DNA from: Schmidtea polychroa
Taxonomy: Eukaryota
NCBI GenBank assembly: GCA_044892525.1
Contig: CM097885.1
Location: forward strand, 19,160,001-19,224,000
DNA: 64,000 bases
Direction: 5' to 3'
In this document: positions 26,086 through 47,430 of the stretch, in pieces
Layout of the letters: each line of letters begins with the position of its first letter
Position numbering within the stretch: position 1 is the stretch's first letter
The notes under the pieces: model-generated
Told to the model about the DNA's origin: nothing
Database searches by the model: none
The model's input: the letters and a program-made list of their open reading frames with translations, nothing else
Position numbers and translations under genes: made by a program

Positions 26086-26418
26086 AGTAGTGAGGAATCT
26101 ATGCACCCCAGCACCCCCACCCTAAAAAAAAACAGCGCTATTGACCCATATTTTCCACATTTATATGCTTTTTTACCCCATATTCTTCACTTTTTTTAAC
26201 TTTTAAACTTTGTCCCCTATTGCCATTAACCCTTAATTTCTTCCCTTAAAAGTAAAAAAGTTCGGAATAGATGTATTTATAGATTAGTAATTCCGAGAAA
26301 AGGTAACGGGGTGCATAGATTCCTCACTACTTGGTCTTAAGGATTTAATGTTATAAGGATTTAATGTTATAAGAATATCAGATTACCTAATTCATAATGA
26401 TCTAGGTCGCCTGATCAC
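26086..26418 (+). repeat. Left terminal inverted repeat (333 bp)
   Basis: Exact reverse complement of 40359-40691 on base-by-base reading; contains a 16-bp tandem duplication TAAGGATTTAATGTTA (26338-26369). Confidence 0.97.
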
Positions 26419-26491
26419 TTTTAGATTTAAAAAAAATAAAAATTAATATCAAAACCAAAACATCGTATCCAACCAAAAAATTCTTTTAAAA

Positions 26492-29400
26492 ATGGAAGCT
26501 ATTTTCAATTGTGAAATTTGTGAAAAAAATTTTAAAAATAAAACTGCTTTAACATCTCATAAAAAATCAAAAGACCATTTAATAAAAGCTAACACACTAG
26601 ATGACACTAATTCCAAAATCTGTTCTAAATGTAAGGATAGATATTTATTTTCAGGTTATAAGAAGCATTTTAAAAATTGTATTGGAGTTCCTAAAAACAG
26701 AGAAATATTCGAATGTTCAGCATGTGGAAAAAAGATGAAGATAAAATCTTTTTACTTAAGACACATAGAAGATTGTGGTCTTGAAGCAAAAGATTCTGAT
26801 TCAAACTCAATGACTGAAAAAGCTGAAAAACTAGAGTTTAATTGGGACAACTTCAATCACACCGATGTAATTGTAGAAGTAAAACGAGGACCCAGATCAA
26901 TCATGCAATATATAAGAGAAAATAAAAAAAAAATAATATCATCAATGGATGATGCTATAAAAAAATTTGGTAGATCAAGATTTAATGTTATAAAAGTTAA
27001 ATTTACAGGAAATGCAAAATACTGGAGAGGAGATGATTCAATCGCAATGCCTCTAGATGTAAAAATTGAAACCTCATATAAATATTTATTTTCTACAAAA
27101 GCAGGAAATAAACTTGTTAATGATATAGCTAAAGAATTGGAAGAAAAACAAGAACAGGTGGAACAAGAACTAGGAGAATCTAATTTAAGATTCCACTCTT
27201 TTCAAAATATAGAGATTGAATACTGGAGAGGCGCACCACCAAATCCTAAATCTTTTATTCACACACCATTCACCTCCAACCATGTTATAAATGTACAGAA
27301 TAAAGATAATAAATGTTTTCAATGGTCAATACTTGCACACTTACATCCTCAAGCAACTAACCCACAGAGAGTTCAAAAATATGAAGAATATGAATCTGAA
27401 TTAATTTATCCAAAAGATTTTTCCCACCCAATGAAAATTGAAGATGTTCCAGCATTTGAAAAATTAAATAATCTTAAAATTAATATTTATCAATTCATTC
27501 CAACCAAAATTACAAAAACTAGAAAAAATAAAAATTATAAACACATTATTCCTATTTACATTTCTAACATGGAAATCTCAGATGAAAAGAGAGAAGTAGA
27601 TCTTTTAATATTAGAAGAAGGTAAACCAGATGAAGACTTTGATGGAGAAGAATATGGTGAAGAGGTTCAAAGCGTTCACCCGAGGAGAGAAGCAGAAGAA
27701 GGCATTTCATTAGAACCAGAAGCAGAAAGCACTGCGTCCGGAGGCACTATGTTAGATAAAAAACTTCATTATATCTTAATAAAGAATTTTCAAAGTTTTA
27801 TGAAAGGAAACACACTCATTCGTGGAGGCATATGTTGTAAAAGATGTTTATATCATTCAAGTTCAAAACTTGCTGCTATTAAACATGAGAGACTCTGTTG
27901 TAAGAATCAACCTGCTTTAATAAAAATGCCACACAAGAAAAATGCTAATATGAGGTTTAAAAACTATTCCAATCTATTAGAAGCATTGGGAGTGGTTTAT
28001 TGTGATTTTGAAGCTATAAATGTAAAACTAAGACGAACAAAAACTAATACTGTAAAACTAACAAAACAATTACCCTCTGCTTATAAAATGTTTTTTAAAA
28101 GTAATTATCCAGAACTTGTAGAATCTAGAGAATATTCATTTAGAGGAACTTCTGACAAAGAGACTCTAGATCATTTTGTTAAAACTTTAAATAATCTAGA
28201 ACATGAATTATATATAATATTAAAATCCAACTTTCCTATGAATTTTTCAGAAGAACAAGAGGAAGAATATAAAAATGCAACACACTGCTGGATGTGTAAA
28301 CAAGAGTTTGATATTCAGGAGGAGGAGGATGAGAAGCCAAAGGTTGCAGACCATGATCATTTTAAAAGAGAAAATAATTACAGAGGAGCAGCCCATAAAA
28401 AATGTAATCTCAATTGTAAAAAACCAACACACATACCATTTATATTTCACAATCTTTTTGGCTATGATATTCACCTATTCATTAAGCATCTGGCCGCAAA
28501 TGCTAAAAACTCTTTCAAGGTTATTGGACTTACAAAAGAAAAATATAAAAGCATTCAATATGGATGCTTTAAGTTTTTGGACTCGTTAAATTTCTTAGGG
28601 ATGTCTTTGGATGGGATTGCTAAAACTATGAACCCTGAGGATTTTAAATATACAAAAGAACATGTGTTATTAAAAAACAATATTCCATTAGAGGAATATA
28701 ATACCTGTCTAGCAAAAGGAATCTATCCATATGATTATATAGACTCCTTTGAAAAATATAATGAATTACTCCCACCCCAAGAAGATTTCTTTTCTGTTTT
28801 AACACAATCAGGGATTTCTGATCAGGAATATTCCCGTGCAGTTAAAATGTGGAATCTATTCAACTGTAGAAACCTTGGAGAATATACTGACATGTATCTT
28901 TCCTTGGATGTTTATATCTTAGCTGATTGCTTCGAGACATTTTCAAAAGCTTTTGAATTAAAACCTTATAATTATATAACCGCTCCCTCTCTAGCTTGGG
29001 ATATATTATTATATACCATATGGACTGATGAAGATGTAGCAGTAAGAAATAAAACTATTGAATTATTAGTTGAGCTTGATATGTTTAATGTATATAAACA
29101 TAATATTAGAGGAGGTATTTCTTCAGTACAAGGGAATAGAGAAATAAATGCTAATAATTTTACAACTCTTTATCCTAAATTTTTCAAAGATCCTGATGCT
29201 CTATATGTAGAAATAACAAACCCAGAAGATCGTAAGGAAATAATGGAAGGTCTTTCTAATCCTTCTGAAATAATGTATATAGATGCAACAGCTTTATATG
29301 CGGGAGTAATGACTCAATACCTTCCAATTGGCAAGTTCACCTGGAAAGAACCCACTGAGGAATTAATACAAGAAATTCTAAAAACACCAAAAGATTCTCA

Positions 29401-30886
29401 ATTTGGATATGTTGTAGAATGTGATCTTGAATATCCCAATGAAATAAAATCCAGAACTAGATATTTTCCATTTGCTCCTGTAAGAAGAAAGATCTCTCCT
29501 GAAGAACTATCAGATTGGCAGATTGCTCAGAATAGAACACCATGTATAAAACTTTTATGTGATCAAACAGATAAAACTGATTATCTTTGTCATTATAGAC
29601 TCCTCCAGCTTTATCTCTCACATGGAATGGTTTTAAAAAAAGTACATTCTATAATTAAATTCCGACAAGCTCCTTTTATGAAAAAATTCATCGAGGGAAA
29701 TATCTTAAAAAGAAATGCAGCAAAGAGAGCTGGAAATGCTTTTCTTGATATGATTTATAAACTTTTAAACAATGCAGTCTTTGGAAAGACAATGGAGAAT
29801 ATTGATAAATATACTCGTGTAGAGCTCTTAACCAATACAACAAAAGATCTTAATAAATATAATCGAATAATTGGAAAGCCTACATTTAAAAATGCAGAGA
29901 TATTCTCTAGTAACCTTATAGCTATAGAGATTAAAAACTCTGTAAAAACTTATAATAAACCAATCTTTATAGGTTTTTCAATTTTAGAACTTTCAAAGCT
30001 TCAAATGTATGAGACCTACTATGATGTTCTAGTACCCCATTTTGGAGATCGAATATCCATGCATGCTATGGACACTGATAGTATGTTTTTAAAAGGTCAT
30101 AGTAAAGATTTAAAAAAGGAAATAAGTGAAAACGAAACCTTAAATAAATTAATAAACAACTCTGGAGAATTATTTACTTTTAAAGATGAAAAACCAAATA
30201 CTCCAATAAGTGGAGGAGTGTTTATTAGACCTAAACAATATTCTCTTGAAATGAAAGACAAACCAATTATGAAAGAGCATACAATAAAATTTATAATAGG
30301 GGAGGGAGAAGGATCTGTTGAAATAGATCACACATTTGAATATCCTTCATTCCCTGAAAACCCGAAAAGCTATAAAGAAAATAAAAGTAAAGGAATTCAA
30401 AAATCAGTGTCAAAAACCTTCACACATCAAGAGTATAAAGATTCATTAAATATAAATTATAAAAATAAAATTGCTAAAACCCATCATCTTAAATCAGAGA
30501 AACATAATATATATCTTGAAGAGTGTAACAAGATTGCTATAACAAATTATGATGATAAAAGATTTATACTTTCTGACTTGAAGACAACATTACCTATTGG
30601 AAATGATTTAATCCCTATAATAAAAAATCTTGATAAAATAAATGAAATTTATAACCTAGAGATTACAGACCTTCAACTTGCTAAAGTAGAAATCCAATAT
30701 CCTGAAATATTAATTCCTAAACCTTTATATAATCAAGTTCAAAATATAAAACCTATAGAACTTAAATATTTTAATACTGATCCTGAATATATCCAAGGAC
30801 TAACACCAGAAGACTTTAAATCACATAAATTAATGTTAAAAAGCATTACTGCAGAAATAATTATAAATCAATTACGACTGGTCTAA
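26492..30886 (+). CDS. pPolB: Protein-primed family B DNA polymerase with N-terminal zinc fingers and an endonuclease-VII-like insert
   Basis: Exonuclease motifs YCDFEA, HNLFGYD, YLSLDV; polymerase motifs YIDATALY, KLLNNAVFGK, MDTDS, FKDE, RPKQY, KGI; CWMC...DHDH...YRGAAHKKCN (EndoVII-like); CEIC..HKKSKDH and CSAC..HIEDC zinc fingers. Confidence 0.96.
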   Translation: MEAIFNCEICEKNFKNKTALTSHKKSKDHLIKANTLDDTNSKICSKCKDRYLFSGYKKHFKNCIGVPKNREIFECSACGKKMKIKSFYLRHIEDCGLEAKDSDSNSMTEKAEKLEFNWDNFNHTDVIVEVKRGPRSIMQYIRENKKKIISSMDDAIKKFGRSRFNVIKVKFTGNAKYWRGDDSIAMPLDVKIETSYKYLFSTKAGNKLVNDIAKELEEKQEQVEQELGESNLRFHSFQNIEIEYWRGAPPNPKSFIHTPFTSNHVINVQNKDNKCFQWSILAHLHPQATNPQRVQKYEEYESELIYPKDFSHPMKIEDVPAFEKLNNLKINIYQFIPTKITKTRKNKNYKHIIPIYISNMEISDEKREVDLLILEEGKPDEDFDGEEYGEEVQSVHPRREAEEGISLEPEAESTASGGTMLDKKLHYILIKNFQSFMKGNTLIRGGICCKRCLYHSSSKLAAIKHERLCCKNQPALIKMPHKKNANMRFKNYSNLLEALGVVYCDFEAINVKLRRTKTNTVKLTKQLPSAYKMFFKSNYPELVESREYSFRGTSDKETLDHFVKTLNNLEHELYIILKSNFPMNFSEEQEEEYKNATHCWMCKQEFDIQEEEDEKPKVADHDHFKRENNYRGAAHKKCNLNCKKPTHIPFIFHNLFGYDIHLFIKHLAANAKNSFKVIGLTKEKYKSIQYGCFKFLDSLNFLGMSLDGIAKTMNPEDFKYTKEHVLLKNNIPLEEYNTCLAKGIYPYDYIDSFEKYNELLPPQEDFFSVLTQSGISDQEYSRAVKMWNLFNCRNLGEYTDMYLSLDVYILADCFETFSKAFELKPYNYITAPSLAWDILLYTIWTDEDVAVRNKTIELLVELDMFNVYKHNIRGGISSVQGNREINANNFTTLYPKFFKDPDALYVEITNPEDRKEIMEGLSNPSEIMYIDATALYAGVMTQYLPIGKFTWKEPTEELIQEILKTPKDSQFGYVVECDLEYPNEIKSRTRYFPFAPVRRKISPEELSDWQIAQNRTPCIKLLCDQTDKTDYLCHYRLLQLYLSHGMVLKKVHSIIKFRQAPFMKKFIEGNILKRNAAKRAGNAFLDMIYKLLNNAVFGKTMENIDKYTRVELLTNTTKDLNKYNRIIGKPTFKNAEIFSSNLIAIEIKNSVKTYNKPIFIGFSILELSKLQMYETYYDVLVPHFGDRISMHAMDTDSMFLKGHSKDLKKEISENETLNKLINNSGELFTFKDEKPNTPISGGVFIRPKQYSLEMKDKPIMKEHTIKFIIGEGEGSVEIDHTFEYPSFPENPKSYKENKSKGIQKSVSKTFTHQEYKDSLNINYKNKIAKTHHLKSEKHNIYLEECNKIAITNYDDKRFILSDLKTTLPIGNDLIPIIKNLDKINEIYNLEITDLQLAKVEIQYPEILIPKPLYNQVQNIKPIELKYFNTDPEYIQGLTPEDFKSHKLMLKSITAEIIINQLRLV

Positions 30887-31465: not shown

Positions 31466-31559
31466 AACCAACGATATTTAATTTTTTAATAATAAAATGT
31501 CGACAATTAATTTAAGCAACTATAGCAACCTGATCTACTTTTTTAAAAATACACCCATT

Positions 31560-32171
31560 TTATAAGTAAGAATTCTTTAACCATTTTTCTCCAGATGTTT
31601 TTTTATTACTTATAACATTAGCCACCATGCCCTCCCTTTTTAATCTTATAACCTCATTCTTTATATCTTGTATTATTTGATTTGATTTCATTATTTCTTC
31701 GTCTGTCAGGATTCCATCTTCCAAAGCTTTTAATTGAAATAAAAATAATTTAGAGATTCCTAATTCTATTGATAAACAAACTTCTCTATATAAACTTTTC
31801 TTTTTAGAAGTATTAGATAATGAAACTATTTCAGTTAAGAAACCATCAGCCACAGAAATACTTCCAAGTATTACAGGTGCAAGAGTAACAACTGGTAAAG
31901 TTATGGGTAAAATAACTGTTAATATTGCAGATGCAAATCCTAAAGAATAACCTATAACTTTTAAAACTGTATTCCCTTTATTCCATCTATTTTTAATTTT
32001 TTTATAATGCTTTAATAAATCTTGTAAATGTAAGGTTTCTGATTTAAATTCTTTTACTCTCATAATTTCAAGTTCTGTGGGAGCCGAGGCCTTGGAACCT
32101 TTGTGACCTTCGGAATAATATCCTGATGATCTCAATTCTGGGTAAATTTTTTCTTCTCTTACTTCTTCCAT
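31560..32171 (-). CDS. Maverick membrane protein (hydrophobic hairpin)
   Basis: Hydrophobic stretch VLKVIGYSLGFASAILTVILPITLPVVTLAPVILGSISV between helical regions; N-terminal IYPEL and ASAP motifs. Confidence 0.75.
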   Translation of the reverse strand: MEEVREEKIYPELRSSGYYSEGHKGSKASAPTELEIMRVKEFKSETLHLQDLLKHYKKIKNRWNKGNTVLKVIGYSLGFASAILTVILPITLPVVTLAPVILGSISVADGFLTEIVSLSNTSKKKSLYREVCLSIELGISKLFLFQLKALEDGILTDEEIMKSNQIIQDIKNEVIRLKREGMVANVISNKKTSGEKWLKNSYL

Positions 32172-32179
32172 TTTAATAA

Positions 32180-33190: not shown

Positions 33191-33214
33191 TTATTAATAA
33201 TTTAAAATGAATCT

Positions 33215-33979
33215 TCAAACCTGTTTCAAATGTAAATACATTGAAATCTCTTCTCCATTAAAATCAATCAATTCTCCTTCTTGATTAAGAATTTTAAAAT
33301 TAATATCCATTATATATTTTCTACATAAAGGTAAATAATTTGGAGTATTCATTCTTTCAACTATTTTATATCCCATAGGAACTGTGTTTGAGGGAAAGGA
33401 ATATAAAACATTTGTTTGTTTACCATTATTATAAGAACCTGTTATACAATCGCAATGAATATTTATTGTGTTTGTATTTATAATTTTTATAATATGTTCT
33501 GATGTTATTATTTTATCTTCTTTTATTGTTATATCCATAGGTTTAAATCCTAAAACTGTGTGAAAGAAACAATTATCTAAAAAACTAATTTTTATATTCT
33601 TCAAAGTCATTACACATTTTGAAGTTGGTATATCCATTTTAATTTTAATACCTTCATTTGTTTTTTTAGAAAGTATATCATTTAAATCTTTTATCTCATA
33701 TGCCCCAGGTTCTATTGTTATAATTTCTGGTTTATGCCCATCACGAGTTTGAATAGTAAATTTATTATTATCTTTAGTTATATTAAAAATAGTATTATAA
33801 GCACAAAACCATAATAGCCCCAATTCATAATTTAAATTTTGATCTAATTTAATTGAATCTTGAAAGTTTATAGTAAAGTCTGATTCTTTTGAATTTATAG
33901 ATAAAGTTCTTGAATATTTATCTGACATTATGTTTACCATTTTTTTTAAATTATCTTCCGGAGGGTTGTGAAGCTCCAT
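33215..33979 (-). CDS. Minor capsid protein (penton, single jelly roll)
   Basis: DFTINFQDSIKL..YELGL..YNTIFNIT, IEPGAYEIKDLN, INIHCDCITGSYNNG...VLYSFP, NQEGELIDFNGE: Polinton/adintovirus penton pattern. Confidence 0.88.
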   Translation of the reverse strand: MELHNPPEDNLKKMVNIMSDKYSRTLSINSKESDFTINFQDSIKLDQNLNYELGLLWFCAYNTIFNITKDNNKFTIQTRDGHKPEIITIEPGAYEIKDLNDILSKKTNEGIKIKMDIPTSKCVMTLKNIKISFLDNCFFHTVLGFKPMDITIKEDKIITSEHIIKIINTNTINIHCDCITGSYNNGKQTNVLYSFPSNTVPMGYKIVERMNTPNYLPLCRKYIMDINFKILNQEGELIDFNGEEISMYLHLKQV

Positions 33980-34027
33980 TTCTTTAGTAGTAAATTCATA
34001 TAGTAAAAATCCTTATAGTAAAAATCC

Positions 34028-34492
34028 TTATAGTAGAGATTCTAGATCATTATAAATTTCTTGAATTATAGATTCAAAATCCTGCGTATGCCCCTTTCCC
34101 TCTCCCTTATTCAATCTATACAAAACATATAAACTTAAAATACCACATATTTTAGTATTCAAAGGTTGAACTTGTAAAGAGTTAAAAGTATAACCATTTG
34201 GGGAATCAATCGGAGAACCCTTCAAGAGATAATCTTCAACTTCTTTAGTAGGTTTAATCCCAAAAGAATCAAAGTAGATAGATTTCTTATATATACAAAC
34301 CCAATGAGATCCTTTTTCATTTGAATTTTGATAATTGATTATTATATTCAGGGGACTCTCCAGACTTGATAATTCATCATTCATTAATATTTTAATTTTT
34401 AAATTTAAATAATTTGCATAATCTTTTAAATCAAAATTTGTTTTTGCATTTATTCCAAATGTTTTTAAAAAATCTAATATTGAAGGAGTCAT
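34028..34492 (-). CDS. Adenain-like cysteine protease
   Basis: GSHWV (His), YFDSFG (Asp), QVQPLNTKICG (oxyanion Gln and catalytic Cys). Confidence 0.93.
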   Translation of the reverse strand: MTPSILDFLKTFGINAKTNFDLKDYANYLNLKIKILMNDELSSLESPLNIIINYQNSNEKGSHWVCIYKKSIYFDSFGIKPTKEVEDYLLKGSPIDSPNGYTFNSLQVQPLNTKICGILSLYVLYRLNKGEGKGHTQDFESIIQEIYNDLESLL

Positions 34493-34514
34493 TTTGTATT
34501 TTAAAACTTCGTAT

Positions 34515-35357
34515 TTATAACTTCGTATACTTATTAAATTTATCTTTTGAAATTATTCCTTGTTTTAACAAATCTTTAGAAATCTTTAAAATATCAGAAT
34601 CTAAATTATTATGTCCTGCTTTCCTTGCAGCTAATAGTTTTCTTAATTCAATAAAAAGATTGATGGGATTTGGTTTACCACCTTCACTAATTAATCCCTC
34701 TCCCTCTGTAACAACATAACCCTTTTCATTTTTATTTAAATAATTCTTTAAATCTTGAATATATTTTGCTTTAGAACTAGCTCTTATTAATTTTATTAAA
34801 TTTAAATATTTTTTAATTTCTTCAACATCATCTGAAGAATATCCACAAAGTAATCTATAAAAATCATCTGTAAATTCAAAGTCTAAATATTCATTATTAT
34901 AAACATTTTGTGAATGAATACGTGATTTATTTTCTGAATTTGAACAGAATTTGGACAGAGTCCCCTGAGACTTTTGACCTTCAGACAGAGTCCCCTCATA
35001 TGGATTAAGATAGAGGCCTTTTCCAACGGACACTCCCCCTTTAGCTTGCCCTACCTTCTTCATTGAATCGATTTCAGTTTGTAGTTTTTCTTTTTCTAGG
35101 TCTGTCTTTTGAGATTCTTTAGCTTTTTGAACTGTAGTTGCAATTCCTCCAGCTATTCCAGCAGCACCTGATAAACCAGCAATGATTGCAGGTATTAAAG
35201 CAGCTAATGGAAGAATGCCACCTTCTTTAGCTTTGTGGAGCTTCGCTCTAACTTGTTCTTTTACATGTTTTTCAATAAAATATTTTTTACCATCAATTAC
35301 AACTGATTTATTTTTATTTGAATTTATTAATTCTTGCAAAGATTCTTCAGTTGTCAT
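34515..35357 (-). CDS. Core/membrane-lytic precursor protein (adenovirus pX-like segment)
   Basis: KEGG|ILPLAALIPAIIAGLSGAAGIAGGIATTV resembles the GG-cleaved amphipathic pX-type peptide; further GxG|L sites (GKGLYL, GEGLIS); C-terminal ELRKLLAARKAGHNN..DLLKQGII resembles a recurrent Maverick domain. Confidence 0.75.
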   Translation of the reverse strand: MTTEESLQELINSNKNKSVVIDGKKYFIEKHVKEQVRAKLHKAKEGGILPLAALIPAIIAGLSGAAGIAGGIATTVQKAKESQKTDLEKEKLQTEIDSMKKVGQAKGGVSVGKGLYLNPYEGTLSEGQKSQGTLSKFCSNSENKSRIHSQNVYNNEYLDFEFTDDFYRLLCGYSSDDVEEIKKYLNLIKLIRASSKAKYIQDLKNYLNKNEKGYVVTEGEGLISEGGKPNPINLFIELRKLLAARKAGHNNLDSDILKISKDLLKQGIISKDKFNKYTKL

Positions 35358-35372
35358 TTTATAATAAACAAA

Positions 35373-36164
35373 ATGGATATTTGGAAACCAATTTTAAATA
35401 GACATAAGAGTAAATTTAATAATAAAGTATTTCCTGATAATTTTAGATTATTAATTGTTGGTTCTTCTGGATGTGGAAAGAATGTACTTGTTTTGAGAAT
35501 GTTACTTGAAGATGATTTTTTAGATTATAATAATTTAATCTTTTATTCTACAACCATAAATCAACCAGAATTACAACTTTTGAAATGTGGATTTGAAAAT
35601 AAATTAACTAAAAAAGCAATAATTGATATTTTTAAAAATCAACATAGGTGTCCTGAAGAAGTTTTTCAACCTTGTGATATGGTTGATTGGTATAAGGAAA
35701 AGATTTTAGAATCAGATATTAGTAATAAAAATGATTATATTTGTGAAGAAGGGCAGGAGGCAATTCAAGTTTTATTCTCTAATAAACCTGAAGATGTTTT
35801 ACATTGTGATTTACTTCCTAAAGATAAAAAGAATCTAGTTATATTTGATGATGTTGTCAACATGAAAAATCAAGAGATTCAAAAGAGTTACTTTACACGA
35901 GGTCGACATAATAATTGTAATGTTATTTATATATCTCAAACATATTATGCTTTAGATAAAAATTCAATAAGAAATAATTCCAATTGTTTTATATTTTTTA
36001 AATTAGATCGCCGTGATAAGAATATGATTTATAATGATTTATTTTCAAATGTTGAACCTGATAAGAATATGTTTGATATGTTTGTTGATAATCATTGGAA
36101 AGAAAAATATAATTATATTTATTTGGATAGAGAAGAAGCTGAAATATGGAAAAGTTTGTTTTAG
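35373..36164 (+). CDS. FtsK/A32-like genome-packaging ATPase
   Basis: Walker A GSSGCGK(N), Walker B LVIFDD, arginine-finger region TRGRH, ISQ and IRNN motifs; start moved to the ATG at 35373. Confidence 0.92.
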   Translation: MDIWKPILNRHKSKFNNKVFPDNFRLLIVGSSGCGKNVLVLRMLLEDDFLDYNNLIFYSTTINQPELQLLKCGFENKLTKKAIIDIFKNQHRCPEEVFQPCDMVDWYKEKILESDISNKNDYICEEGQEAIQVLFSNKPEDVLHCDLLPKDKKNLVIFDDVVNMKNQEIQKSYFTRGRHNNCNVIYISQTYYALDKNSIRNNSNCFIFFKLDRRDKNMIYNDLFSNVEPDKNMFDMFVDNHWKEKYNYIYLDREEAEIWKSLF

Positions 36165-36175
36165 GGCTTGTCGAC

Positions 36176-37585
36176 TTAAAAATCTGTTTTCTGTAGTTCA
36201 TTATTATAAAATCTACCTAATATTTTTTCATTATGTAAATCAAAGATGGTATATGTTATTGGAGTTGTATAATGTATTTTATTTATAATAAAAATTTCAT
36301 TTGTCCATTTTGCTGTGAATCCTTTTTCAAATTTATTTTTATATTTAAATATTCTTACTCGGTCACCAATTTTAAACTTTGGTTTTTCAATAACATCATT
36401 TTCAATATTTACCACTTTAATGGTTTCAGGCTTCATGGAATCATTTAAAGGTGTTAATTTTATAGAACTATGTACATCATTATTATATTCATTTACAATC
36501 TTTTGTAACAATTCATTGTTCCATTTTTGTTTTCCAATAGCAGTAAAATATTTCCACATTTTATTTTTTAATGTTCTATTTAATCTTTCAACTACGACTG
36601 CTTTTCCTTCGTTTTCTGTTGAATATAATTTAATATCATTTTCATTTAAAAACTTTGTAAAAACTTTGTTATAAAATTCTGTTCCTTTATCACACCATAA
36701 ATATTTTGGGATTCTTTGATTTTCTTCAAATATATTTTCAAATGCTTCTGTAATAGAATATCCTGTTTTATTTTCTTAACATCTTGCAAAAGCAAATCTT
36801 GTATATAAATCTATTACAGTTAAAATTATTTTATATTTTTCAGGGTCTGATGATTTGGGCATAAAGACTAAATCTGCAGACCATGTTTGATCTTTTTCAT
36901 GCACTTGAACTTTTAAATATTTTTTATTTTTTCTAAATTCATGGTGTAATTCCTTTGCATATTTTATTTCTGATTCTGTTGGGGTTTGTAAACTAGTCTT
37001 GGCTGTACTCTCGAGGGATCTTTCAATCTCTGCTTGTTCGATAATCTTTTTATAAGCAACATCTTTTGCTTTCCTAGGAAGTCTTGCACCCATGGTGATC
37101 GGACTGTGTCCTAAGCCTATGAAAATCTTACCTTTCATTGCTAATTTAACTAGAGCTCTTTGAATCTTTTCTTGGGTTGATGGATTTTGGATACTATTTA
37201 AATCATGTATTAAATTCACATCTGCAACATGTCTATCTCTAAGATTTGTTGAATTGTTTGCAATGTCATGTTTTAAAGCTGCTTGATCAATTCTATTTAT
37301 TGGTTCTTCTCCTTGTTTGGGATTATTATTTTCATCTAATCTAATATCTAGACGTGTTCCTGGTCCAGTGTAGTTGTGTTTAAATAAATGTCTTTCACCT
37401 GGATATTTTTCTATAGTAAAAGGTTTTAATATTGAAGATGTTGTTTTTGAAGATTGCAAATCGACTCCAGCTCGTGGAATTAGATCACCTCCTGTATGTT
37501 TTTTAGTTTTTAAATGACTTGCTTTATGATGTCTTGTAACTTGACAATTACAACTTTCACATCTCCAATATTTATTTAGAGACAT
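36176..37585 (-). pseudogene. Zinc finger + parvovirus-type phospholipase A2 + retroviral-like (rve) integrase fusion, one premature stop
   Basis: One reading frame 37585 to 36176 interrupted only by TAA at 36778-36776; CESC..HLKTKKH finger; HNYTGPGT...DQAALKHDIA...D PLA2 motifs; integrase DDE triad WSADL / WCDKGTEF / VERLNRT. Confidence 0.9.
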
Positions 37586-37614
37586 TTTAAAATGTTAAAA
37601 TATCAGGGATTATA

Positions 37615-38915
37615 TCAAGAATCTCCCCTAACATTTTCGATTATTGAAATCTTTCCACCATATAATTTCATTTCTATTTTCTTTTCTTCTAATATTAATG
37701 TATATACTTTAGCTTTAAAATTAGAATCCTTTGTTACATGAAGTGTAACATCAACATTATTTATGGCTAGGCGATCATCTTGGTCTGAAACATTTATACA
37801 AAATATAGAATATAAATTTTTGAAATCTTCTAAACTTAATTGCGGTTCAACTTTGAAATCATAACATGTTTCAATATAATTTAGATATGGGAATATGTTT
37901 TCATTATTTTCAATATTAAATTCCATTCTATTTATTGGATAATAAGAACTATTTAATTGAATTTGGATTGTTTTTAAATTATCAACTCCAATCTTTTGAA
38001 TAAACAAGTTGTTATTTTTTTGGAAAGATGAATCTACTTCTTTGAATCCAATCAAGATATATCTTGGTCGGTATGCTAAATTTGCTACCTTTATAGAATA
38101 TGTTGAACCCTCTGTCATACTAAATTCACTACAGATTCTATTTAAATAATTTACATTTATAGACTTGTTGGAATTTAATCTTTCAAGGAGTTTAATCTCA
38201 GAATGTGGGTTTAATGTCCATTCAGGTATATGTAATTCAAGTGTTGATAATTTTAATTTAGCTTTTGTATCTACAGCTCCATAGAACAATCTTTTATCAC
38301 CTTCTACTCTATTACAGATGAATTCTATAAAAACATTATGAAGTATACGATTATAGTTTTGAAGGAATCCAAACAAGTGTTTTAATTCAAAATAACCTTC
38401 AAATTTTTTAGATTTATAAAGTTCAGCTCTTTTATGGTAACCATGGTTTACATCTAAACCATCTTTATCTAAATCCCCTTTATTAACATCAGGAATCCAA
38501 CCTGTTAATTCACCATATTCGTTTTTATAATCACAACCAGTCAAAATAAAATTTAACATTGTAGAATATACTCCCGGATGCAAAACAGTTTCAATTTCTG
38601 ATGATCCTAGTTTTAATGATTAAAATTTAATCTCATGTTGGAGAATAAATTTGGAAAGAAATTATTTTCTAGGGTTATGTCTTTGTTTGCTTCAATTTCT
38701 AATTCGATTTTATAATATAATTTGGCATTACAAATATCTATAGGGTTTGATGTTTGAAGAGATTGAAAAACTATATCACCCCTACGATTTAAGTTTGCAA
38801 TAGATCCTGAAGTTGGGGAGATTTTAAGTACATCGTTTTTCTTGATTTCATGAGTAAATTCTTTATTATAATCAAGATTTAATTTATTTTTTTCTTGAAT
38901 TTTTATATTATTCAT
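37615..38915 (-). pseudogene. Major capsid protein (double jelly roll), frameshifted
   Basis: ORFs 38613..38915 and 37615..38583 join into about 428 aa if a 14-bp insertion (about 38618-38631) is removed; FELKHLFGFL, LELHIP, RPRYILIGF, IQLNSSYYP, YSIFCINVS fit Polinton MCPs. Confidence 0.85.
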
Positions 38916-38971
38916 TTTTATATATTAAAATTTACACACACAAAATAGGATTAATTAAATATATTATGTAA

Positions 38972-39053
38972 GCCATTATAGCGGAGTGGGAATAGGCTTC
39001 AATTTTATCACCGGGAGTACCGGGTTCAATTTTCGATTTTGGTCAATTTTTTT
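38972..39053 (+). ncRNA. tRNA-like Pol III unit 1
   Basis: A box TAGCGGAGTGG (38979), B-box-like GGTTCAATTTT (39023), T7 terminator 39047-39053; anticodon arm does not pair. Confidence 0.65.
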
Positions 39054-39206
39054 CGATATTTTTTTTTCAACGGAATCTGATTCAGCGTACTGATTTTAGT
39101 ATATATTTAAATTTTCAGATCGATCTGAGTGGTAGTTGTCGAGAAAATGAATAATTAATTATTAATTTCATCAATAAATAGTCACACATTAACAACTTAT
39201 TTTATA

Positions 39207-39287
39207 TTGAGTATAGCTTAGTGGTAATAGCACTCGACTGCATTGCCAATACCAATGGGTTCAAATCCCATTTCGGTCATTTTTTTT
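39207..39287 (+). ncRNA. tRNA-like Pol III unit 2 (tRNA-Cys-like 5' half)
   Basis: A box TAGCTTAGTGG (39214), B box GGTTCAAATCC (39258) inside a perfect T arm ATGGG-TTCAAAT-CCCAT, T8 terminator 39280-39287; GTATAGCTTAGTGGTAATAGCACTCGACTGCA resembles eukaryotic tRNA-Cys(GCA). Confidence 0.75.
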
Positions 39288-39444
39288 CAAATTTATTTTT
39301 AACGAAATATTGATCAGCATACTCGATTTAGTACTTGTACAAATTTTTAAGGAGATTGGTCAACGGCAACTCTTGGAAATTTAAGATCAAAAACGTTTTA
39401 ACTACCAAAAATTAATATATCCAATAAAAAAAATATTTATAAAA

Positions 39445-39741
39445 ATGGATGAGTTAAAAGAAAGAATGAGAAATGAATTGAATGAAGTTAAACATAAGAG
39501 AATGAAAAGAAGAGAAGAAGAACCATTAGAATACATCAAAGAGTTGATGGTAGATAATGAAAAGTATCGACATTTTTATATGAAGGCTGTAGATGTTGCT
39601 GATATAAGATTGAAGAAAATGAAACAATTACAGGAAAGAGTTAAAGAACTTGAATCGATTATTTATTGTCTAAAAAATGACAAAAATTCAAACCTTGATG
39701 GCGCAGTGGGAATAGACTGGCACAGTGGTTCAAATGGATAG
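39445..39741 (+). CDS. Small coiled-coil hypothetical protein
   Basis: 98-aa ORF with the same TAAAAATG start context as the other element genes; charged heptad pattern; its 3' end overlaps Pol III unit 3. Confidence 0.6.
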   Translation: MDELKERMRNELNEVKHKRMKRREEEPLEYIKELMVDNEKYRHFYMKAVDVADIRLKKMKQLQERVKELESIIYCLKNDKNSNLDGAVGIDWHSGSNG

Positions 39742-39774
39742 CGGTTCAAATCACATCTGAGGTTAGTTTTTTTT
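39692..39774 (+). ncRNA. tRNA-like Pol III unit 3
   Basis: A box TGGCGCAGTGG (39699), B box GGTTCAAATCA (39743), terminal stem ACCTT/GAGGT, T8 terminator 39767-39774. Confidence 0.65.
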
Positions 39775-39939
39775 CAACATAAAATAATATTAAAAATTTG
39801 AAAATAATATTGAAAATAGTGTGGGTATCTTATATTTATAAAGTACTTGTATATTTTATTTTATTTATTTTATTTTATTTTATTTTTTTATTAATTAATT
39901 ATTTTTTAAACATAAATATGAAAAAAAAAATATTGAAAC

Positions 39940-40034
39940 GGGTGATGGTGGCGAACCGGTAATTATCGCCACCTGTCTTTCGAACACCCCCGGATCGATT
40001 CCGGTAATGTGCACATTTATTTCTCAGTTGTTTT
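39940..40034 (+). ncRNA. Candidate Pol III unit 4
   Basis: A-box-like TGGCGAACCGG (39949), B-box-like GGATCGATTCC (39992) in a CCGG/CCGG stem, hairpin GGTGGCGA/TCGCCACC; first T4 at 40031-40034. Confidence 0.4.
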
Positions 40035-40358
40035 CGGACCTCTTTCGGATTCGCTTTCGAATTCATTTGTACTTTCGAGCAGCACACTTAAAACGCCGAT
40101 GAAATCGTATTCAAGCGAGAAGCGAATAATAAGGTGTGCTGCTGTTATCGGATTGATTCTGATGTATGAGTCTGGCCAGCTTGTATATTGGAAGAGATTT
40201 GATAAACGAAAGAGGTTGAATAAAAAAAAATGATCCGGATCAAAAAAAAAACTGTTGAGAGGACAGTGAAAAAAAAAAAAAAAAAAAACCACTGTCCTCT
40301 CAGAGCAGTTTTACTATTTCATAAAATTTTTTATTTTTAAAACTTTCAAAACCTTAAG

Positions 40359-40691
40359 GTGATCAGGCGACCTAGATCATTATGAATTAGGTAATCTGAT
40401 ATTCTTATAACATTAAATCCTTATAACATTAAATCCTTAAGACCAAGTAGTGAGGAATCTATGCACCCCGTTACCTTTTCTCGGAATTACTAATCTATAA
40501 ATACATCTATTCCGAACTTTTTTACTTTTAAGGGAAGAAATTAAGGGTTAATGGCAATAGGGGACAAAGTTTAAAAGTTAAAAAAAGTGAAGAATATGGG
40601 GTAAAAAAGCATATAAATGTGGAAAATATGGGTCAATAGCGCTGTTTTTTTTTAGGGTGGGGGTGCTGGGGTGCATAGATTCCTCACTACT
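40359..40691 (-). repeat. Right terminal inverted repeat (333 bp)
   Basis: Reverse complement of 26086-26418; followed by the TSD ATCAAA. Confidence 0.97.
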
Positions 40692-41855
40692 ATCAAAGTT
40701 TATCTCTTAAATAAGACAAACTTTCAAGCCTGCTTTTTATAAAGTGTTATAAATTAGCGTATAATTTTTTACAAATCGAAAAGTAGAGGTATTTGGTAGA
40801 AGAAGTATTTCAAAAATACAATATAAAAAAAGCAGGAAATAATGAAAGATTTCCATCATTAAAAACTCGATTCTGTATATTCAACTCTTTTAATATTATC
40901 AAAATATCGCAAATAATACTATTTAATTTCGACCAAAGGCAATTAAAATGATTAATCCAAATAATTTTATTAAAACTCATAAATATAATAAATTTAAAGG
41001 TTACTCTCCATCATCGCATTCCCAATTTCTATTGTATAAAAATAGATAAACATTTAAGGCCCAAACGTCTAGAGTCAGTAATATTGTTAAAAGTTTACTT
41101 GATTTATTAAAACGACGCAAATTTTATTAGCGGTTCTAATAACTGTAAATATTGCATATTTGAACTTAATTTTTTTATTATGTCAGATATCATATTTGAC
41201 TACAAACATGAGTTTTGAAAGATATTGTGAGTGAAAATAAAAATAAAGATATTATTGAGAGGTATATTTAAGAGGTGTACCTTATAATATAGAAATATGC
41301 AATAATATATAATACTTAATTTATTATAAATGAATTAGTTAAATTTTCTTATTAAAAAGCATTTTTTCAATTTATTAATATTTGTTATCAATGCTTGTTT
41401 TTACCTAACGCTCCGAAAAGAAGGTCGGATACTTGCGGATGAGCTTCAACCTTTAAGCGGTCGCAGAATATCTAATTTGTTATTTTACTTCTGATAATTT
41501 CCTTCAGTGTTCTGCTGAGGATTAGCAGACATCACAATCTCTTTGAATCTTAGCTTTGAGCACTATTATGCAGTGTTTCACAGATATATTTAGAATTACC
41601 CGTTGAATTGTTTGATATTGGCGAGTTATCAAATCATTTAAATGTGTGTTGTGTCAGTAGGCATTTCTTTACAACTGACATATTTTCTTTTACTGTGTTA
41701 TTTATGCCATAAAAGATTGTTTCTCGGAGACAGTCCGTTTTGTGGTGTAGTGGCGTTCAATTAGAGTAACAATTCGTTAATTCATCCCAATGTAATCCAT
41801 TTCATTCATCGTAAACACGGTGATGTGTAAAAGTAGTGTCGTTATAACCATGTTA

Positions 41856-45200: not shown

Positions 45201-47239
45201 ATCGAATAAAAAATCTAGTTCTTTGGTTGTAGACTTCTGTAACCAGATGTTCTTGCTATTATAAAGTTCCTTTCGAACAAGGACATTGTCCGTATGTGGT
45301 ATACTTTTCATTTAAAAGTAATATTTTTCGATAATTTTTTCAACCATTTTGTATGATTTTGGTATGTCTTTTAGTTCTCTTTTAGTATGAAGAGTTATTT
45401 TTGATAATTAGCAATTAAAACATTCGTGAATAAACATTAGATCTCATTTCCAGTTTCTTCTCCTGTTTGAAGATAAATATATTTTAAAGCTTTCATTTTT
45501 ATATACTATTTCTTGTAGAGGTTGTCGTAATTACATATCCGATACCCCATTTCCTTTTTCTTGATGTATTCAATTGAAAATTTGGTTTCATTTTTATTAA
45601 ATAGATTGCTAGTGATTCTCAGTTACATATTTAATATTTGATCATGATTAAGATAGCTTTCTGGAAAAGAATGAAATTGCAATCAAGTTATATTTTGAGT
45701 AATTTTGATAGGGACTGACTGCTGAAAAAGCCTTTAAACACAACGTAAGTTATTGATATAAATCAAGAAATCCAAGACTTTGTGAGAATATTCTTCGCAT
45801 TTTTACATTTGAACTTGTCACATCTGTAATGTTAAAAATTCGCTCAAAACTCTGATGCCATCTTTATTTAGCTTTGTTTTATTAACAGTGTGTATATTTA
45901 AACAAAACTAATTGTTAATGAAATTAATGTATTGTGAAATAAAATTAGTTAATTTCACAATAATTCAATCCTAAAAATACCATGTTGAATTTATTTTTGA
46001 AAACCATACAATTTTGTTCCAATTAAATTCAATTATTTAAACAATAGCATTAATCAATGTTAGATTTATTAAATTTATTAAATTTAGATTATATTAAAGG
46101 AACAGTAATAATTAACAATCAATTATTCTTTTGTTCATCATTGAACTATTTTTTCTTTACAATTTCATTTATCTTCATTTAGATTTCTATTATAGATCAA
46201 TGACTTTTCAATTTAACACACATTTTTAAAACAGCTTCTCAGATGTCACCTAATGGTTAAAAAAGCAATAGAAAACGTATCACTTATGACAGTTGAGCTG
46301 CCTAAATTAATTGCAAAATATATTTTAATAAATAGTTTTCTTTGATTTAAATAGAGTAAACATAATAAAGTCAACAAATAGAATATATTTTTAACTAATT
46401 TCCACTTTTTATTTAAAATAGTTAAACATTTTTTAATAAATTATTTTTATAATTCTAATTATTTTGGGTATAAAATGTAGTAAGAATGGACAGATTTTGA
46501 GCCTTCATACTTTATACATTATTTACAAATTTTATCTGCTATAACCAAACAATTCATTTGATGTTTTGTATGCAAAATTTGTGCAAATTTAAAAGTTAAT
46601 GTCTCCTTTATGTGTTTAATATTGGATTTTGCTTAATTTTTTGTGGTAATTAAATTGAATTTCGAAATTCTTTATCAATTTCTAAATAACAAAAATACTT
46701 TTCTTTTTTACATACTGAAAAAAGGTCAAAGGTTAAAGCAAAATGTAATGACAAAGTCCACAATCTTTGTTGCGAAATATTAAGCTTTGATCTTTATTCA
46801 AAATGAAAATAAACCAAATATCATTAAATAAACAAATCCAAAGTTAACGAAATAAATATAAATAAATAATATTAAACAAATTTAAAATTGATATACTGAA
46901 AATTGCACAAATTGATAAATTTTAATTTAAATTTCATAGAGATTTAGAAATGCAAAGAACCAAAATGTTTATCAATTTCGTGAAAATCAAATTATCAAAA
47001 ATATTGATAAAAATATTTTAATTTTACATAATTAAAAACAAATTAATAAACGTTAAATATTTCTATATGAATAATGAAATGTTATCAAATTACATCTAGT
47101 CAATCGAGGTGAATCTAGTGAATTTTTTTTAATTATTAATTATTATTATAATAATATTATTATTTAATAACATTTCAAAAATAAATCTCGAGAAATTATG
47201 ATTGATTAGTTTCCTTTAGCGAATTTTGTTTTTATTTCA

Positions 47240-47265
47240 TAATAATAATAATCATAATCATAATC

Positions 47266-47334
<69 letters not shown>

Positions 47335-47336
47335 TA

Positions 47337-47430
<94 letters not shown>

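What the first reader, a model, noticed from the sequence alone, without database searches (positions are those of the whole stretch)
38972..39774. Array of tRNA-like Pol III transcription units inside a Maverick/adintovirus: candidate VA-RNA analogues
Seen: three co-oriented units, each with an A box (TAGCGGAGTGG 38979, TAGCTTAGTGG 39214, TGGCGCAGTGG 39699), a B box starting exactly 44 nt later (GGTTCAA.. at 39023, 39258, 39743) and a T7-T8 run about 24 nt after the B-box start. They share AGTGG(G/T)AATAG, while the sequence between the boxes has diverged and the anticodon arms do not pair. Unit 2 resembles tRNA-Cys(GCA) in its 5' half. Known: this is type-2 Pol III promoter geometry, used by adenoviral VA RNAs and gammaherpesviral tRNA-like RNAs, and Mavericks are related to adenoviruses. 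Inference: promoter and terminator have been kept while decoding structure was lost, suggesting 75-80-nt element-encoded ncRNAs (RNAi/innate-immunity decoys) or TFIIIC-bound chromatin barriers next to the capsid gene. I do not recall such an array being described for Mavericks, but cannot check.
Basis: partly seen in the sequence, partly recalled or inferred. Interest (0 to 1): 0.9.

Follow-up and report, generated by a model that had tools for sequence, protein, structure and literature searches.

The report
tRNA-like promoter units inside a Maverick
Three worn-down copies of a tRNA gene that still look like start-and-stop signals for RNA polymerase III are a fixed part of a virus-like Maverick transposon present about two thousand times in this animal genome, but whether they are used is not shown.

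Summary
Three co-oriented units carry an A box and, exactly 44 nt on, GGTTCAA (3 matches vs 0 in 100 shuffles), then a T7-T8 run 22-24 nt later. None is a decoding tRNA (ARAGORN 0; best Rfam tRNA score 26.7 vs cut-off 29, unit 2).

They are not a host SINE. The element is a complete 14.6-kb Maverick (361-nt TIRs, 6-bp target duplication). A unit-1 24-mer occurs 2127 times and a capsid-gene 24-mer 2122 times, at a fixed distance where compared.

The unit-3 type is old: 10 of 12 diverged loci have it next to the capsid gene. Units 1-2 are a subfamily-specific tandem duplicate.

Among paralogues only the boxes, the T-run and CAAC survive (80-83% vs 36-48% identity). Among orthologues the boxes are no better kept than the flanks. 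No RNA fold is conserved, so a VA-RNA-like decoy is unlikely. TFIIIC/Pol III recruitment is plausible but untested, and relics remain a serious rival.

Downstream lie a weaker fourth tRNA-like element and a conserved, strongly structured ~200-nt RNA domain (z -5.6) covered by contigs of runs guessed to be RNA.

The parts
26086..26446 (.). Left terminal inverted repeat of the Maverick. The 6-bp target duplication ATCAAA lies at 26080-26085.
   Evidence: 361 nt, 97% complementary to 40331-40691.
26492..30886 (+). Protein-primed family B DNA polymerase gene (1464 aa), with an N-terminal C2H2 zinc finger.
   Evidence: DNA_pol_B_2 E=2.1e-15; zf-C2H2_jaz E=1.7e-5.
35373..36164 (+). A32-type packaging ATPase gene.
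   Evidence: Pox_A32 E=9.7e-9.
37615..38915 (-). Double-jelly-roll major capsid gene, read as two ORFs (37615-38559 and 38613-38915). Its start lies 54 nt from unit 1 and it points away from unit 1.
   Evidence: DJR-like_dom E=3.1e-23. for the ORFs; both parts are conserved in diverged loci.
38970..39053 (+). Unit 1. A box 38979-38989; B-like box 39023-39033 (GGTTCAATTTT, lacking the C at the tenth position); T7 at 39047-39053. No cloverleaf.
   Evidence: fold z=0.11; 2127 genomic matches of its 24-mer.
39054..39204 (+). Spacer after unit 1. Its first ~110 nt are paralogous to the spacer after unit 2 (235-bp tandem duplication).
   Evidence: not structured (z=0.64).
39205..39287 (+). Unit 2, the most tRNA-like unit. 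A box 39214-39224; B box 39258-39268; intact T arm; GCA at the anticodon position; T8 at 39280-39287.
   Evidence: tRNA 26.7 bits, cut-off 29, E=0.0063; z=-2.77.
39445..39741 (+). 98-aa ORF of coiled-coil appearance (my reading of the sequence). Its last ~50 nt overlap unit 3. Found only with units 1-2 in the main subfamily.
   Evidence: no Pfam family; absent upstream of unit 3 in diverged loci.
39690..39774 (+). Unit 3. A box 39699-39709; second A-like box 39718-39728; B-like 39727-39737; B box 39743-39753; T8 at 39767-39774. The internal 16-nt repeat AGTGGTTCAAAT.. occurs twice. This is the ancestral unit type of the clade.
   Evidence: orthologues in 10 of 12 diverged loci.
39941..40016 (+). 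Possible fourth, weaker tRNA-like element. A-like TGGCGAACCGG at 39949; B-like GGATCGATTCC at 39992 (43 nt on). No long T run follows, only T4 at 40031-40034.
   Evidence: no Rfam tRNA hit; conserved in all 12 diverged loci; its 24-mer has 3094 genomic matches.
40025..40225 (+). Conserved, strongly structured RNA domain ('body'). It is followed by AATAAA (40219-40224) and an A run ending at 40230.
   Evidence: MFE -68.5, z=-5.59, 0 of 200 shuffles; minus strand z=-2.52; alifold on 10 rows; 88-93% pairwise identity; contigs of four runs cover it.
40248..40312 (+). Long perfect hairpin with an A-rich loop, just inside the TIR.
   Evidence: -30 kcal/mol, z=-7.64; conserved in diverged loci.
40331..40691 (.). 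Right terminal inverted repeat. The target duplication ATCAAA lies at 40692-40697.

Best explanation
The three units are paralogous, degenerate derivatives of one tRNA gene. They are a built-in part of a very successful Maverick family.

What they have kept is the layout of a type-2 RNA polymerase III gene. This is an A box, a B box 44 nt further on, and an oligo-T terminator at the distance seen after the host's own tRNA genes. What they have lost is the tRNA fold.

Most likely mechanism (inferred, not shown): TFIIIC binds the boxes. It places TFIIIB and Pol III about 10 nt upstream of the A box. A short (about 75-90 nt), poorly structured, oligo-U-ended RNA is then made.

Neither the inter-box sequence nor any fold is kept, and inter-box length varies from 25 to 44 nt. 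So if the units matter, it is through promoter occupancy or transcription itself. They would mark or insulate the capsid-proximal end of the element and the adjacent terminal non-coding module. The RNA product would not act as a structured decoy.

The unit-3 type is ancestral and in some lineages lies inside the TIR at both ends. Units 1-2 are a recent 235-bp tandem duplicate inserted, together with a small ORF, in the main subfamily.
For: Shown:
- Non-random box geometry.
- tRNA descent: unit 2 scores 26.7 bits on the tRNA model over its full length.
- The units do not decode: ARAGORN finds 0 tRNAs in the window, yet finds 12 host tRNAs in 9 control loci.
- Host tRNA genes have a T6-T7 run 25-27 nt after the B-box start (counted by hand). 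The units have it at 22-24 nt.
- The units belong to the element. The element has TIRs plus a 6-bp target duplication. Of 40 scored matches (2927 candidates), 39 other places match the 1391-nt region at 97-99% identity. Unit-1 24-mer 2127 matches vs capsid-gene 24-mer 2122 matches. Where listed rows can be paired, the spacing is about 199 nt, as in the window.
- The AGTGGKAATAG signature joined to GGTTCGA occurs only 3 times in the genome. All 3 are variants of these units, so the units share one ancestor and were not captured separately.
- Paralogue footprint across four unit types: A region 0.80 and B box 0.83 mean identity. Inter-box is 0.36, trailer 0.42, flanks 0.46-0.48. Of 28 box columns, 19 are identical in all four types, against 6 of 75 other columns.
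- Unit-3-type copies occur in 10 of 12 diverged loci. In the six loci where the capsid gene adjoins, the gap is 127-209 nt.
- Of 17 unit-3-type copies, 17 keep a strict A box and 14 a strict B box. Of those 14, 13 have a T>=5 run. This holds despite inter-box deletions (A-to-B distance 25-44 nt).
- L029 and L030 lie 7.2 kb apart in inverted orientation and both hold unit 3, unit 4 and the body facing outward. I read them as the two arms of one element.

Inferred only: TFIIIC/Pol III use and any benefit to the element.
Against: - Among orthologous unit-3 copies (10 rows) the boxes are not better kept than their surroundings. Invariant columns: A box 7 of 11, B box 8 of 11, inter-box 17 of 25, T run 7 of 8, 3' flank 22 of 26, 5' flank 34 of 53. 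Over that time span the data fit uniform constraint or no constraint.
- The paralogue footprint is partly circular, because the units were found and anchored by their boxes.
- Unit 1's B box lacks the conserved C. Its T run is T5AT in 12 of 20 copies.
- Unit-2-like copies in L022 and L033 have lost the A box.
- Units 1-2 are missing between the capsid gene and unit 3 in the six diverged loci where the two adjoin.
- One contig of a guessed-RNA run (X2, 39723-39796) runs through unit 3's T run without stopping.
- No RNA run on record was available. Pol III transcription is untested.
Confidence: 0.45

Rival explanations
1. Functionless relics. An ancestor of this Maverick clade captured a host tRNA gene with its terminator. 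It was duplicated within the element and is decaying. The boxes look conserved only because they are how the units are recognised.
For: - Boxes are no more conserved than flanks among orthologues.
- No cloverleaf in any unit.
- No tRNA hit at E<=1 in the 11 diverged loci searched.
- Unit 1's B box and T run are weakened.
- A-box-less unit-2-like copies exist.
- Frequent internal deletions.
- Units 1-2 are dispensable in the six lineages where the capsid gene adjoins unit 3.
- The host keeps its tRNA genes in tandem arrays, which are easy to capture as arrays.
Against: - With inter-box identity near random (0.36), neutral decay should have eroded the 17-nt A region (0.80) and the B box (0.83) too.
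- The units share one ancestor.
- The unit-3 type is retained at the same place in lineages whose capsid proteins are only 56-96% identical.
- Strict boxes persist through independent deletions.
Confidence: 0.3
2. Cis-acting DNA or parts of longer Pol II transcripts. The units lie 54-209 nt upstream of the divergent capsid gene and, in the main subfamily, over the 3' end of a small ORF. They could serve as capsid-promoter or UTR sequence, or as subterminal binding sites for replication or integration, independent of Pol III.
For: - Position next to the capsid start in every lineage where the two adjoin.
- The whole stretch, flanks included, is evenly conserved.
- Contigs of guessed-RNA runs bridge from the capsid 5' part into the ORF/unit-3 stretch in variants that lack units 1-2 (joints 38926>39408 and 38922>39671). 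One contig runs through unit 3's T run.
- The units lie in the TIR in some lineages.
Against: - It does not explain why exactly the Pol III box positions and the T run are what the four paralogue types share.
- The bridging contigs may equally be DNA-level variants. The runs are only guessed to be RNA.
Confidence: 0.12
3. VA-RNA or TMER-like decoys. The units make structured small RNAs that block RNAi or innate sensors.
For: Pol III promoter geometry as in adenoviral VA and gammaherpesviral tRNA-like genes (recalled; PMC8223928 seen as listing abstract only). Mavericks share capsid and polymerase ancestry with adenoviruses (recalled).
Against: - Units 1 and 3 fold no better than shuffles (z=0.11, -0.94). 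Unit 2 is modest (-2.77).
- Inter-box sequence and length are not conserved.
- No Rfam family other than the sub-threshold tRNA hit.
- The predicted length of 75-90 nt is about half that of VA RNA (recalled ~160 nt).
- T runs directly follow each unit, so no downstream hairpin can be co-transcribed as in TMERs.
Confidence: 0.08
4. Copies of a dispersed host tRNA-derived SINE that happened to land in this Maverick copy.
For: tRNA-like head with A and B boxes. The first-look tRNA search reports very many tRNA-like candidates in the genome (112431, rough count).
Against: - Same units at the same places in 39 other places at 97-99% identity.
- Unit-1 count equals the capsid-gene count (2127 vs 2122), at a fixed spacing where listed rows can be paired.
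- A T run follows the head directly, and there is no SINE body or tail.
- The other hits listed are Maverick copies or Maverick-derived satellites.
Confidence: 0.02

Closest known systems
tRNA genes carried by polinton-like viruses, virophages and MELD viruses
   Same: Small dsDNA elements of the Polinton/Maverick realm that carry Pol III-type tRNA units. PMC12220804 (passages read) reports 558 tRNA hits in 8300 PLV/virophage genomes. PMC8502044 (Figure 6 legend read) flags predicted tRNA genes in MELD viruses.
   Different: Those are called as real tRNAs by ARAGORN or Rfam and are explained by codon supply. Here none passes either tool, the fold is gone, and only the promoter and terminator layout remains. 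The host is an animal and the family has about 2100 copies.
Trypanosomatid tRNA-like promoter elements (Leishmania U2 snRNA; PMC4950102, abstract read)
   Same: A degenerate tRNA-like sequence that keeps boxes A and B. It is itself transcribed (~109 nt) and acts through its boxes as a promoter element for a neighbouring gene.
   Different: That is a cellular gene in a protist, and the neighbour is a Pol III snRNA gene. Here the neighbours are a capsid gene and a polyadenylation-signal-bearing structured RNA, and no functional test exists.
Murine gammaherpesvirus 68 tRNA-like/miRNA genes (TMERs) and adenovirus VA RNAs
   Same: Virus-borne Pol III genes with internal A and B boxes that do not decode (recalled; PMC8223928 seen only as listing abstract).
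   Different: TMERs keep a tRNA-like fold and run on into pre-miRNA hairpins. VA RNAs are ~160-nt conserved structures. Units 1-3 have no conserved fold and are each followed at once by a T run.
tRNA genes and extra-TFIIIC sites as chromatin boundaries
   Same: Function through TFIIIC occupancy of B boxes rather than through the RNA (recalled from the yeast and mammalian literature). This would fit box-only conservation and placement at the element ends.
   Different: Nothing here tests chromatin or TFIIIC binding. It is an analogy only.
tRNA-derived SINEs
   Same: tRNA-derived head with A and B boxes, in high copy number.
   Different: The units are not independently mobile. Their copy number and spacing are tied to the Maverick capsid gene, and a terminator directly follows the head.

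Membership tests
Functional (decoding) tRNA gene | Cloverleaf with paired acceptor, D, anticodon and T stems, recognised by tRNA finders | tested here: not met
   ARAGORN finds 0 in the window but 12 host tRNAs in 9 control loci. Rfam tRNA: unit 2 scores 26.7 bits, below the 29-bit cut-off. Units 1 and 3 give no hit at E<=10. No tRNA hit in 11 diverged loci.
Type-2 Pol III transcription unit | A box (TRGCNNAGTGG; consensus recalled) | tested here: met
   All three units match exactly (4 matches vs 0.14 expected). Also 17 of 17 unit-3-type copies in diverged loci.
Type-2 Pol III transcription unit | B box (GGTTCRANNC(C); consensus recalled), 30-60 nt after the A box | tested here: met
   Units 2 and 3 match. 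Unit 1 matches only GGTTCAA. Spacing is 44 nt in the window and 25-44 nt in orthologues. Strict B box in 14 of 17 orthologous copies.
Type-2 Pol III transcription unit | Oligo-T terminator shortly after the gene | tested here: met
   T7, T8 and T8 at 22-24 nt after the B-box start. Chance P=0.006-0.017 per site. Host tRNA genes show T6-T7 at 25-27 nt. Unit 1 is T5AT in 12 of 20 copies.
Type-2 Pol III transcription unit | Actual transcription by Pol III and TFIIIC binding | not testable with these tools
   No run on record as RNA. Contigs cannot show starts or ends.
Adenovirus VA RNA / structured viral decoy RNA | Conserved stable secondary structure of the product | tested here: not met
   Fold z-scores 0.11, -2.77 and -0.94. 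Inter-box sequence and length are not conserved. No Rfam match.
Gammaherpesvirus TMER | tRNA-like gene running without a terminator into pre-miRNA hairpins | tested here: not met
   Each of units 1-3 is followed directly by T7-T8. For the weaker unit 4 plus the structured body the layout is open: only T4 lies between them and the body contains long hairpins.
tRNA-derived SINE | Independent dispersal, with copies outside other elements | tested here: not met
   2127 vs 2122 matches for unit 1 and the capsid gene, at a spacing of about 199 nt where listed rows can be paired. 39 other places at 97-99% identity over the 1391-nt query.
Maverick/Polinton element | Protein-primed PolB, double-jelly-roll capsid gene, A32-type ATPase, TIRs, 6-bp target duplication | tested here: met
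   Pfam; TIRs; ATCAAA on both sides.
Maverick/Polinton element | Retroviral-type integrase and adenain-type protease | tested here: inconclusive
   No rve or protease Pfam hit in the element's ORFs. By eye, the end of ORF 36776-37585 and ORF 36176-36559 look integrase-like. That reading is recalled, not tested.

The most novel reading that the evidence does not exclude
This Maverick clade carries an outward-facing terminal non-coding module. It comprises one or more tRNA-derived Pol III promoter units, a weaker fourth tRNA-like element, a ~200-nt highly structured RNA with a polyadenylation signal, and a long hairpin. In some lineages the module is duplicated in both TIRs. It would work as an element-encoded ncRNA system, functionally like VA RNAs or TMERs. 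For example, it might blunt the host's small-RNA or innate defences, or insulate the provirus from chromatin. That could have helped the family reach about 2100 copies.
Probability: 0.15. Interest if true: 0.85.

Novelty: new variant of a known kind. Interest (0 to 1): 0.55.

Why it matters
Mavericks/polintoviruses are treated as protein-gene-only elements. If the tRNA-derived units recruit TFIIIC and Pol III, an animal Maverick would join herpes- and adenoviruses in using Pol III. It would do so through promoter occupancy rather than through a structured RNA.

The material suits a test. About 2100 young copies, older lineages with natural deletion variants, and a conserved structured RNA next door all lie in one genome.

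If the units are relics, they still show that Mavericks capture and carry host Pol III genes. They also show that the terminal module recombines between subfamilies and seeds satellites.

Tried and rejected
- **Expression.** The look-up of sequencing runs listed no RNA holder. The four runs laid are contigs only guessed to be RNA, from 2 studies. Unit 2's 5' half (39170-39246) had no cover in any run. Cover over units 1-2 was thin or absent. The tool warns that such gaps and depths prove nothing, so I draw no conclusion on the expression of units 1-3.
- **Cross-species conservation.** The capsid protein found no relative in viral contigs (11 pattern hits, 0 confirmed). A 29-mer of the body and a unit-3 pattern found nothing in metagenome contigs or viral contigs. 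The tool states that this genome has no relatives in the genome search.
- **Origin.** blastn-short of the four units against the host tRNA-Lys, Arg and Gln genes found only T-run matches. No host tRNA-Cys was retrieved.
- **Coding reading of unit 4 and the body.**
  - A 69-74-aa ORF spans unit 4 in some loci (an ATG start seen in L022, L026 and L031). Its frame is broken in the window, L032 and L035.
  - A 44-aa ORF (40099-40233) is cut to 5 codons in L022-type lineages.
  - Both strands are open for about 100 codons.
  - By eye the codon-position pattern is not coding-like. There is no Pfam family.
  - The question is left open, leaning non-coding.
- **Spacers.** The spacers after units 1, 2 and 3 are not structured (z 0.64, -0.26, 1.73).
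- **Earlier notes.** Nothing near this place or like this sequence.
- **Literature.** Five searches were run.
  - Maverick+Polinton+tRNA (69 papers).
  - tRNA-like / Pol III / Polinton.
  - Polinton + 'RNA polymerase III' (6 reviews).
  - Maverick plus a host genus that I only guessed from genome size and chromosome number (8 papers; passages of two read).
  - None describes degenerate tRNA-like Pol III units in an animal Maverick. Supplementary tables of PMC12220804 (S11, S12) were not opened and may list pseudo-tRNAs.
Full report
**1. What is at the coordinates**

The sequence shows the three units as described.
- A boxes: TAGCGGAGTGG (38979), TAGCTTAGTGG (39214), TGGCGCAGTGG (39699).
- GGTTCAA starts exactly 44 nt later in each (39023, 39258, 39743).
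- T7, T8 and T8 runs begin 24, 22 and 24 nt after the B-box start.

The combined pattern occurs 3 times in the window against 0.00 expected from 100 shuffles. The A-box pattern alone occurs 4 times against 0.14 expected. The fourth match is a second A-like box inside unit 3. A T>=7 run at that distance from a random site has P=0.006 in the window and 0.017 locally.

The stricter B box GGTTCRANNC is met by units 2 and 3 but not by unit 1.

**2. The units are not tRNAs but descend from one**

- ARAGORN finds nothing in the window. It does find 12 canonical host tRNAs in 9 control loci.
- Rfam at gathering thresholds finds nothing.
- At relaxed thresholds only unit 2 aligns to the tRNA model: full length, 26.7 bits against a cut-off of 29. 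GCA lies at the anticodon position and the anticodon stem is mostly unpaired.
- Single-sequence folds are unremarkable: z = 0.11, -2.77 and -0.94.
- Host tRNA-Lys and tRNA-Arg genes have a T6-T7 run 25-27 nt after the B-box start (counted by hand). The units therefore keep the geometry of a tRNA gene with its terminator.

**3. Context**

The units lie in a complete Maverick of 14,606 bp (26086-40691).
- It has 361-nt TIRs that are 97% complementary.
- It has a 6-bp target duplication, ATCAAA.
- It encodes a protein-primed PolB, an A32-type ATPase, a PLA2-domain protein and a double-jelly-roll capsid protein.
- The capsid gene's first ORF starts at 38915 on the minus strand, 54 nt from unit 1.
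- A 98-aa ORF (39445-39741, + strand) ends inside unit 3.

**4. Not a host SINE**

- The 1391-nt stretch 38940-40330 has 39 further matches at 97-99% identity among the 40 scored of 2927 candidates.
- The box pattern with the family signature has 4391 genomic matches.
- A unit-1 24-mer has 2127 matches and a 24-mer of the capsid gene's 5' ORF has 2122 (2 mismatches or fewer). Where listed rows can be paired, the spacing is about 199 nt, as in the window.
- The signature AGTGGKAATAG joined to a canonical GGTTCGA occurs only 3 times in the genome. All three are variants of these units. So no host tRNA gene carries the signature, and the units share one ancestor.

**5. Diverged lineages**

A diverged copy found among the pattern hits (L022) was used as a query. 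It returned loci at 84-94% identity.

In 10 of 12 such loci (L022, L025-L035; absent in L031 and L033) a unit-3-type element is present. It occurs singly or as two tandem versions, which I call 3a and 3b. It is followed by an AT-rich spacer, a weaker tRNA-like element (unit 4), a conserved 'body' and a hairpin.

In six loci (L025, L026, L027, L030, L032, L034) the capsid gene lies 127-209 nt away (56-96% protein identity to the window's). Units 1-2 and the small ORF do not lie between them.

Contigs of the laid runs also join 38926 to 39408 and 38922 to 39671. These are variants without units 1-2.

L029 and L030 lie 7.2 kb apart in inverted orientation, and both hold unit 3, unit 4 and the body facing outward. 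I read them as the two arms of one element whose TIR includes the module. The unit-4 and body 24-mers have 3094 and 3133 genomic matches, about 1.5 times the capsid count. Many of these lie as inverted pairs 13.6-14.2 kb apart.

Units 1 and 2 are a 235-bp tandem duplicate with shared downstream sequence. A unit-2-like module lies elsewhere, after the hairpin, in L022 and L033. There it has lost its A box.

**6. Is there constraint on the boxes?**

Two tests disagree.

*Paralogues.* Four unit types were compared ungapped.
- The A region (0.80) and B box (0.83) stand out against inter-box (0.36), trailer (0.42) and flanks (0.46-0.48).
- Of 28 box columns, 19 are identical in all four types, against 6 of 75 other columns.
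- This test is partly circular, because the boxes anchor the comparison.

*Orthologues of unit 3* (10 rows).
- Invariant columns: A box 7 of 11, B box 8 of 11, inter-box 17 of 25, T run 7 of 8, 3' flank 22 of 26, 5' flank 34 of 53.
- There is no excess in the boxes.

*Indels.*
- The A-to-B distance ranges from 25 to 44 nt, through deletions between internal repeats.
- Even so, 17 of 17 copies keep a strict A box and 14 of 17 a strict B box. Of those 14, 13 have a T>=5 run.

*Young copies* (20, counting the window's own).
- Unit 1's T run is T5AT in 12.
- Unit 2 has a 9-nt insert before its A box in 14.
- Unit 3 reads TAGTGG in 19, where the window has TAGCGG.

**7. Reading**

The units are certainly tRNA-gene derivatives that belong to the Maverick. 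What they keep is the promoter and terminator layout, not an RNA fold. A VA-RNA-like structured decoy is therefore unlikely.

I consider Pol III/TFIIIC recruitment the best single explanation (0.45). Plain relics are a strong rival (0.30).

A known precedent for a degenerate tRNA-like acting through its boxes is the Leishmania U2 snRNA promoter (PMC4950102, abstract). tRNA genes in polinton-like viruses and virophages are in print (PMC12220804, passages; PMC8502044, figure legend).

**8. The neighbouring module**

- Unit 4 (39941-40016) has A-like and B-like boxes 43 nt apart but no Rfam hit.
- The body (40025-40225) folds at -68.5 kcal/mol on the + strand: z=-5.59, 0 of 200 shuffles. The minus strand gives z=-2.52.
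- An alignment fold of 10 lineages keeps the same helices, mostly through invariant pairs, with 3 pairs changed on both sides.
- It is the best-conserved stretch of the region, at 0.88-0.93 pairwise identity.
- AATAAA and an A run follow it. In runs X1 and X2 (one study), 3 and 6 contigs end at 40230 and continue with at least 12 A that the genome lacks. Contigs of all four runs (two studies) cover the body.
- Summed word depth there is far above that over the capsid gene, while DNA copy number differs only about 1.5-fold. The tool warns that contig depth cannot rank parts and that the runs are only guessed to be RNA. I take this as a weak hint of an abundant + strand, possibly polyadenylated RNA.
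- A perfect hairpin (40248-40312, z=-7.64) follows.

**9. Limits**

- No RNA run on record, and no raw reads.
- No sister genome.
- Single decayed copies stand in for lineages.
- Box consensus sequences and the properties of VA RNAs and TMERs are recalled, not computed.

Noticed in passing
window 39941-40330: Terminal non-coding module. It comprises a weak fourth tRNA-like element, a conserved ~200-nt domain that folds far better than shuffles on the + strand only (z -5.59 vs -2.52), AATAAA with contigs ending in non-genomic A runs at 40230, and a perfect 21-bp hairpin with an A20 loop.
   Followed up: partly
L021 (G000:C1:145500-149500); L035-L053 (G000:C3:25479762-25573739): Two satellites built from pieces of the Maverick end. 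One is a 1245-bp repeat containing a diverged unit 2 with both flanks plus a ~20-bp minisatellite. The other is a ~970-bp repeat containing a short unit 3, unit 4, the body and a fragment of the capsid gene's 5' part.
   Followed up: partly
window 38600-38917 versus 38918-40330: The window's copy is a mosaic. Its capsid 5' part is only 92.5-96.9% identical to 19 sister copies. Those copies are 98.7-99.5% identical to it across the units and the terminal module, so subfamilies recombine near the capsid start.
   Followed up: partly
window 36776-37585 (-) and 36176-36559 (-): An ORF with a parvovirus-type PLA2-like domain (Pfam Phospholip_A2_4, E=1.1e-7). By eye, its C-terminal end and the next ORF look like a split integrase core and C-terminal domain. 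No Pfam integrase hit.
   Followed up: no
window 26492-26580: The polymerase ORF begins with a C2H2 'jaz' zinc finger, a type that binds double-stranded RNA (Pfam E=1.7e-5).
   Followed up: no
L022 8582-8788 and homologous places in L026, L029-L031: An open frame of 62-75 codons (MKKYFIEMGVVGEP...) runs across unit 4 and the first half of the body in some lineages. An ATG start is seen in L022, L026 and L031. The frame is broken in the window, L032 and L035. No family hit. It may be a chance open frame in a structured RNA.
   Followed up: partly
G000:C4:76658343-76669437; G000:C474, C333, C140: The host keeps canonical tRNA genes in long tandem arrays: tRNA-Lys(UUU) every 424 bp and tRNA-Arg(UCG) every 278 bp. 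One array member reads tRNA-Gln(UUG) by a single anticodon change.
   Followed up: partly
window 54975-60269: An ORF with a TBP domain (54975-55421, minus strand). Next to it is a Ty3/gypsy-type retroelement split over several ORFs (zinc-knuckle gag, aspartic protease, RT, RNase H, integrase).
   Followed up: no
window 47207-47551: A ~345-nt near-perfect palindrome made of short repeats (many overlapping inverted-repeat pairs, 83-93% complementary).
   Followed up: no
window 26086-26109 and 26309-26332 (mirrored in the right TIR): The terminal 24 nt of the TIR recur in inverted orientation ~225 nt further in, so each end can itself fold back.
   Followed up: no
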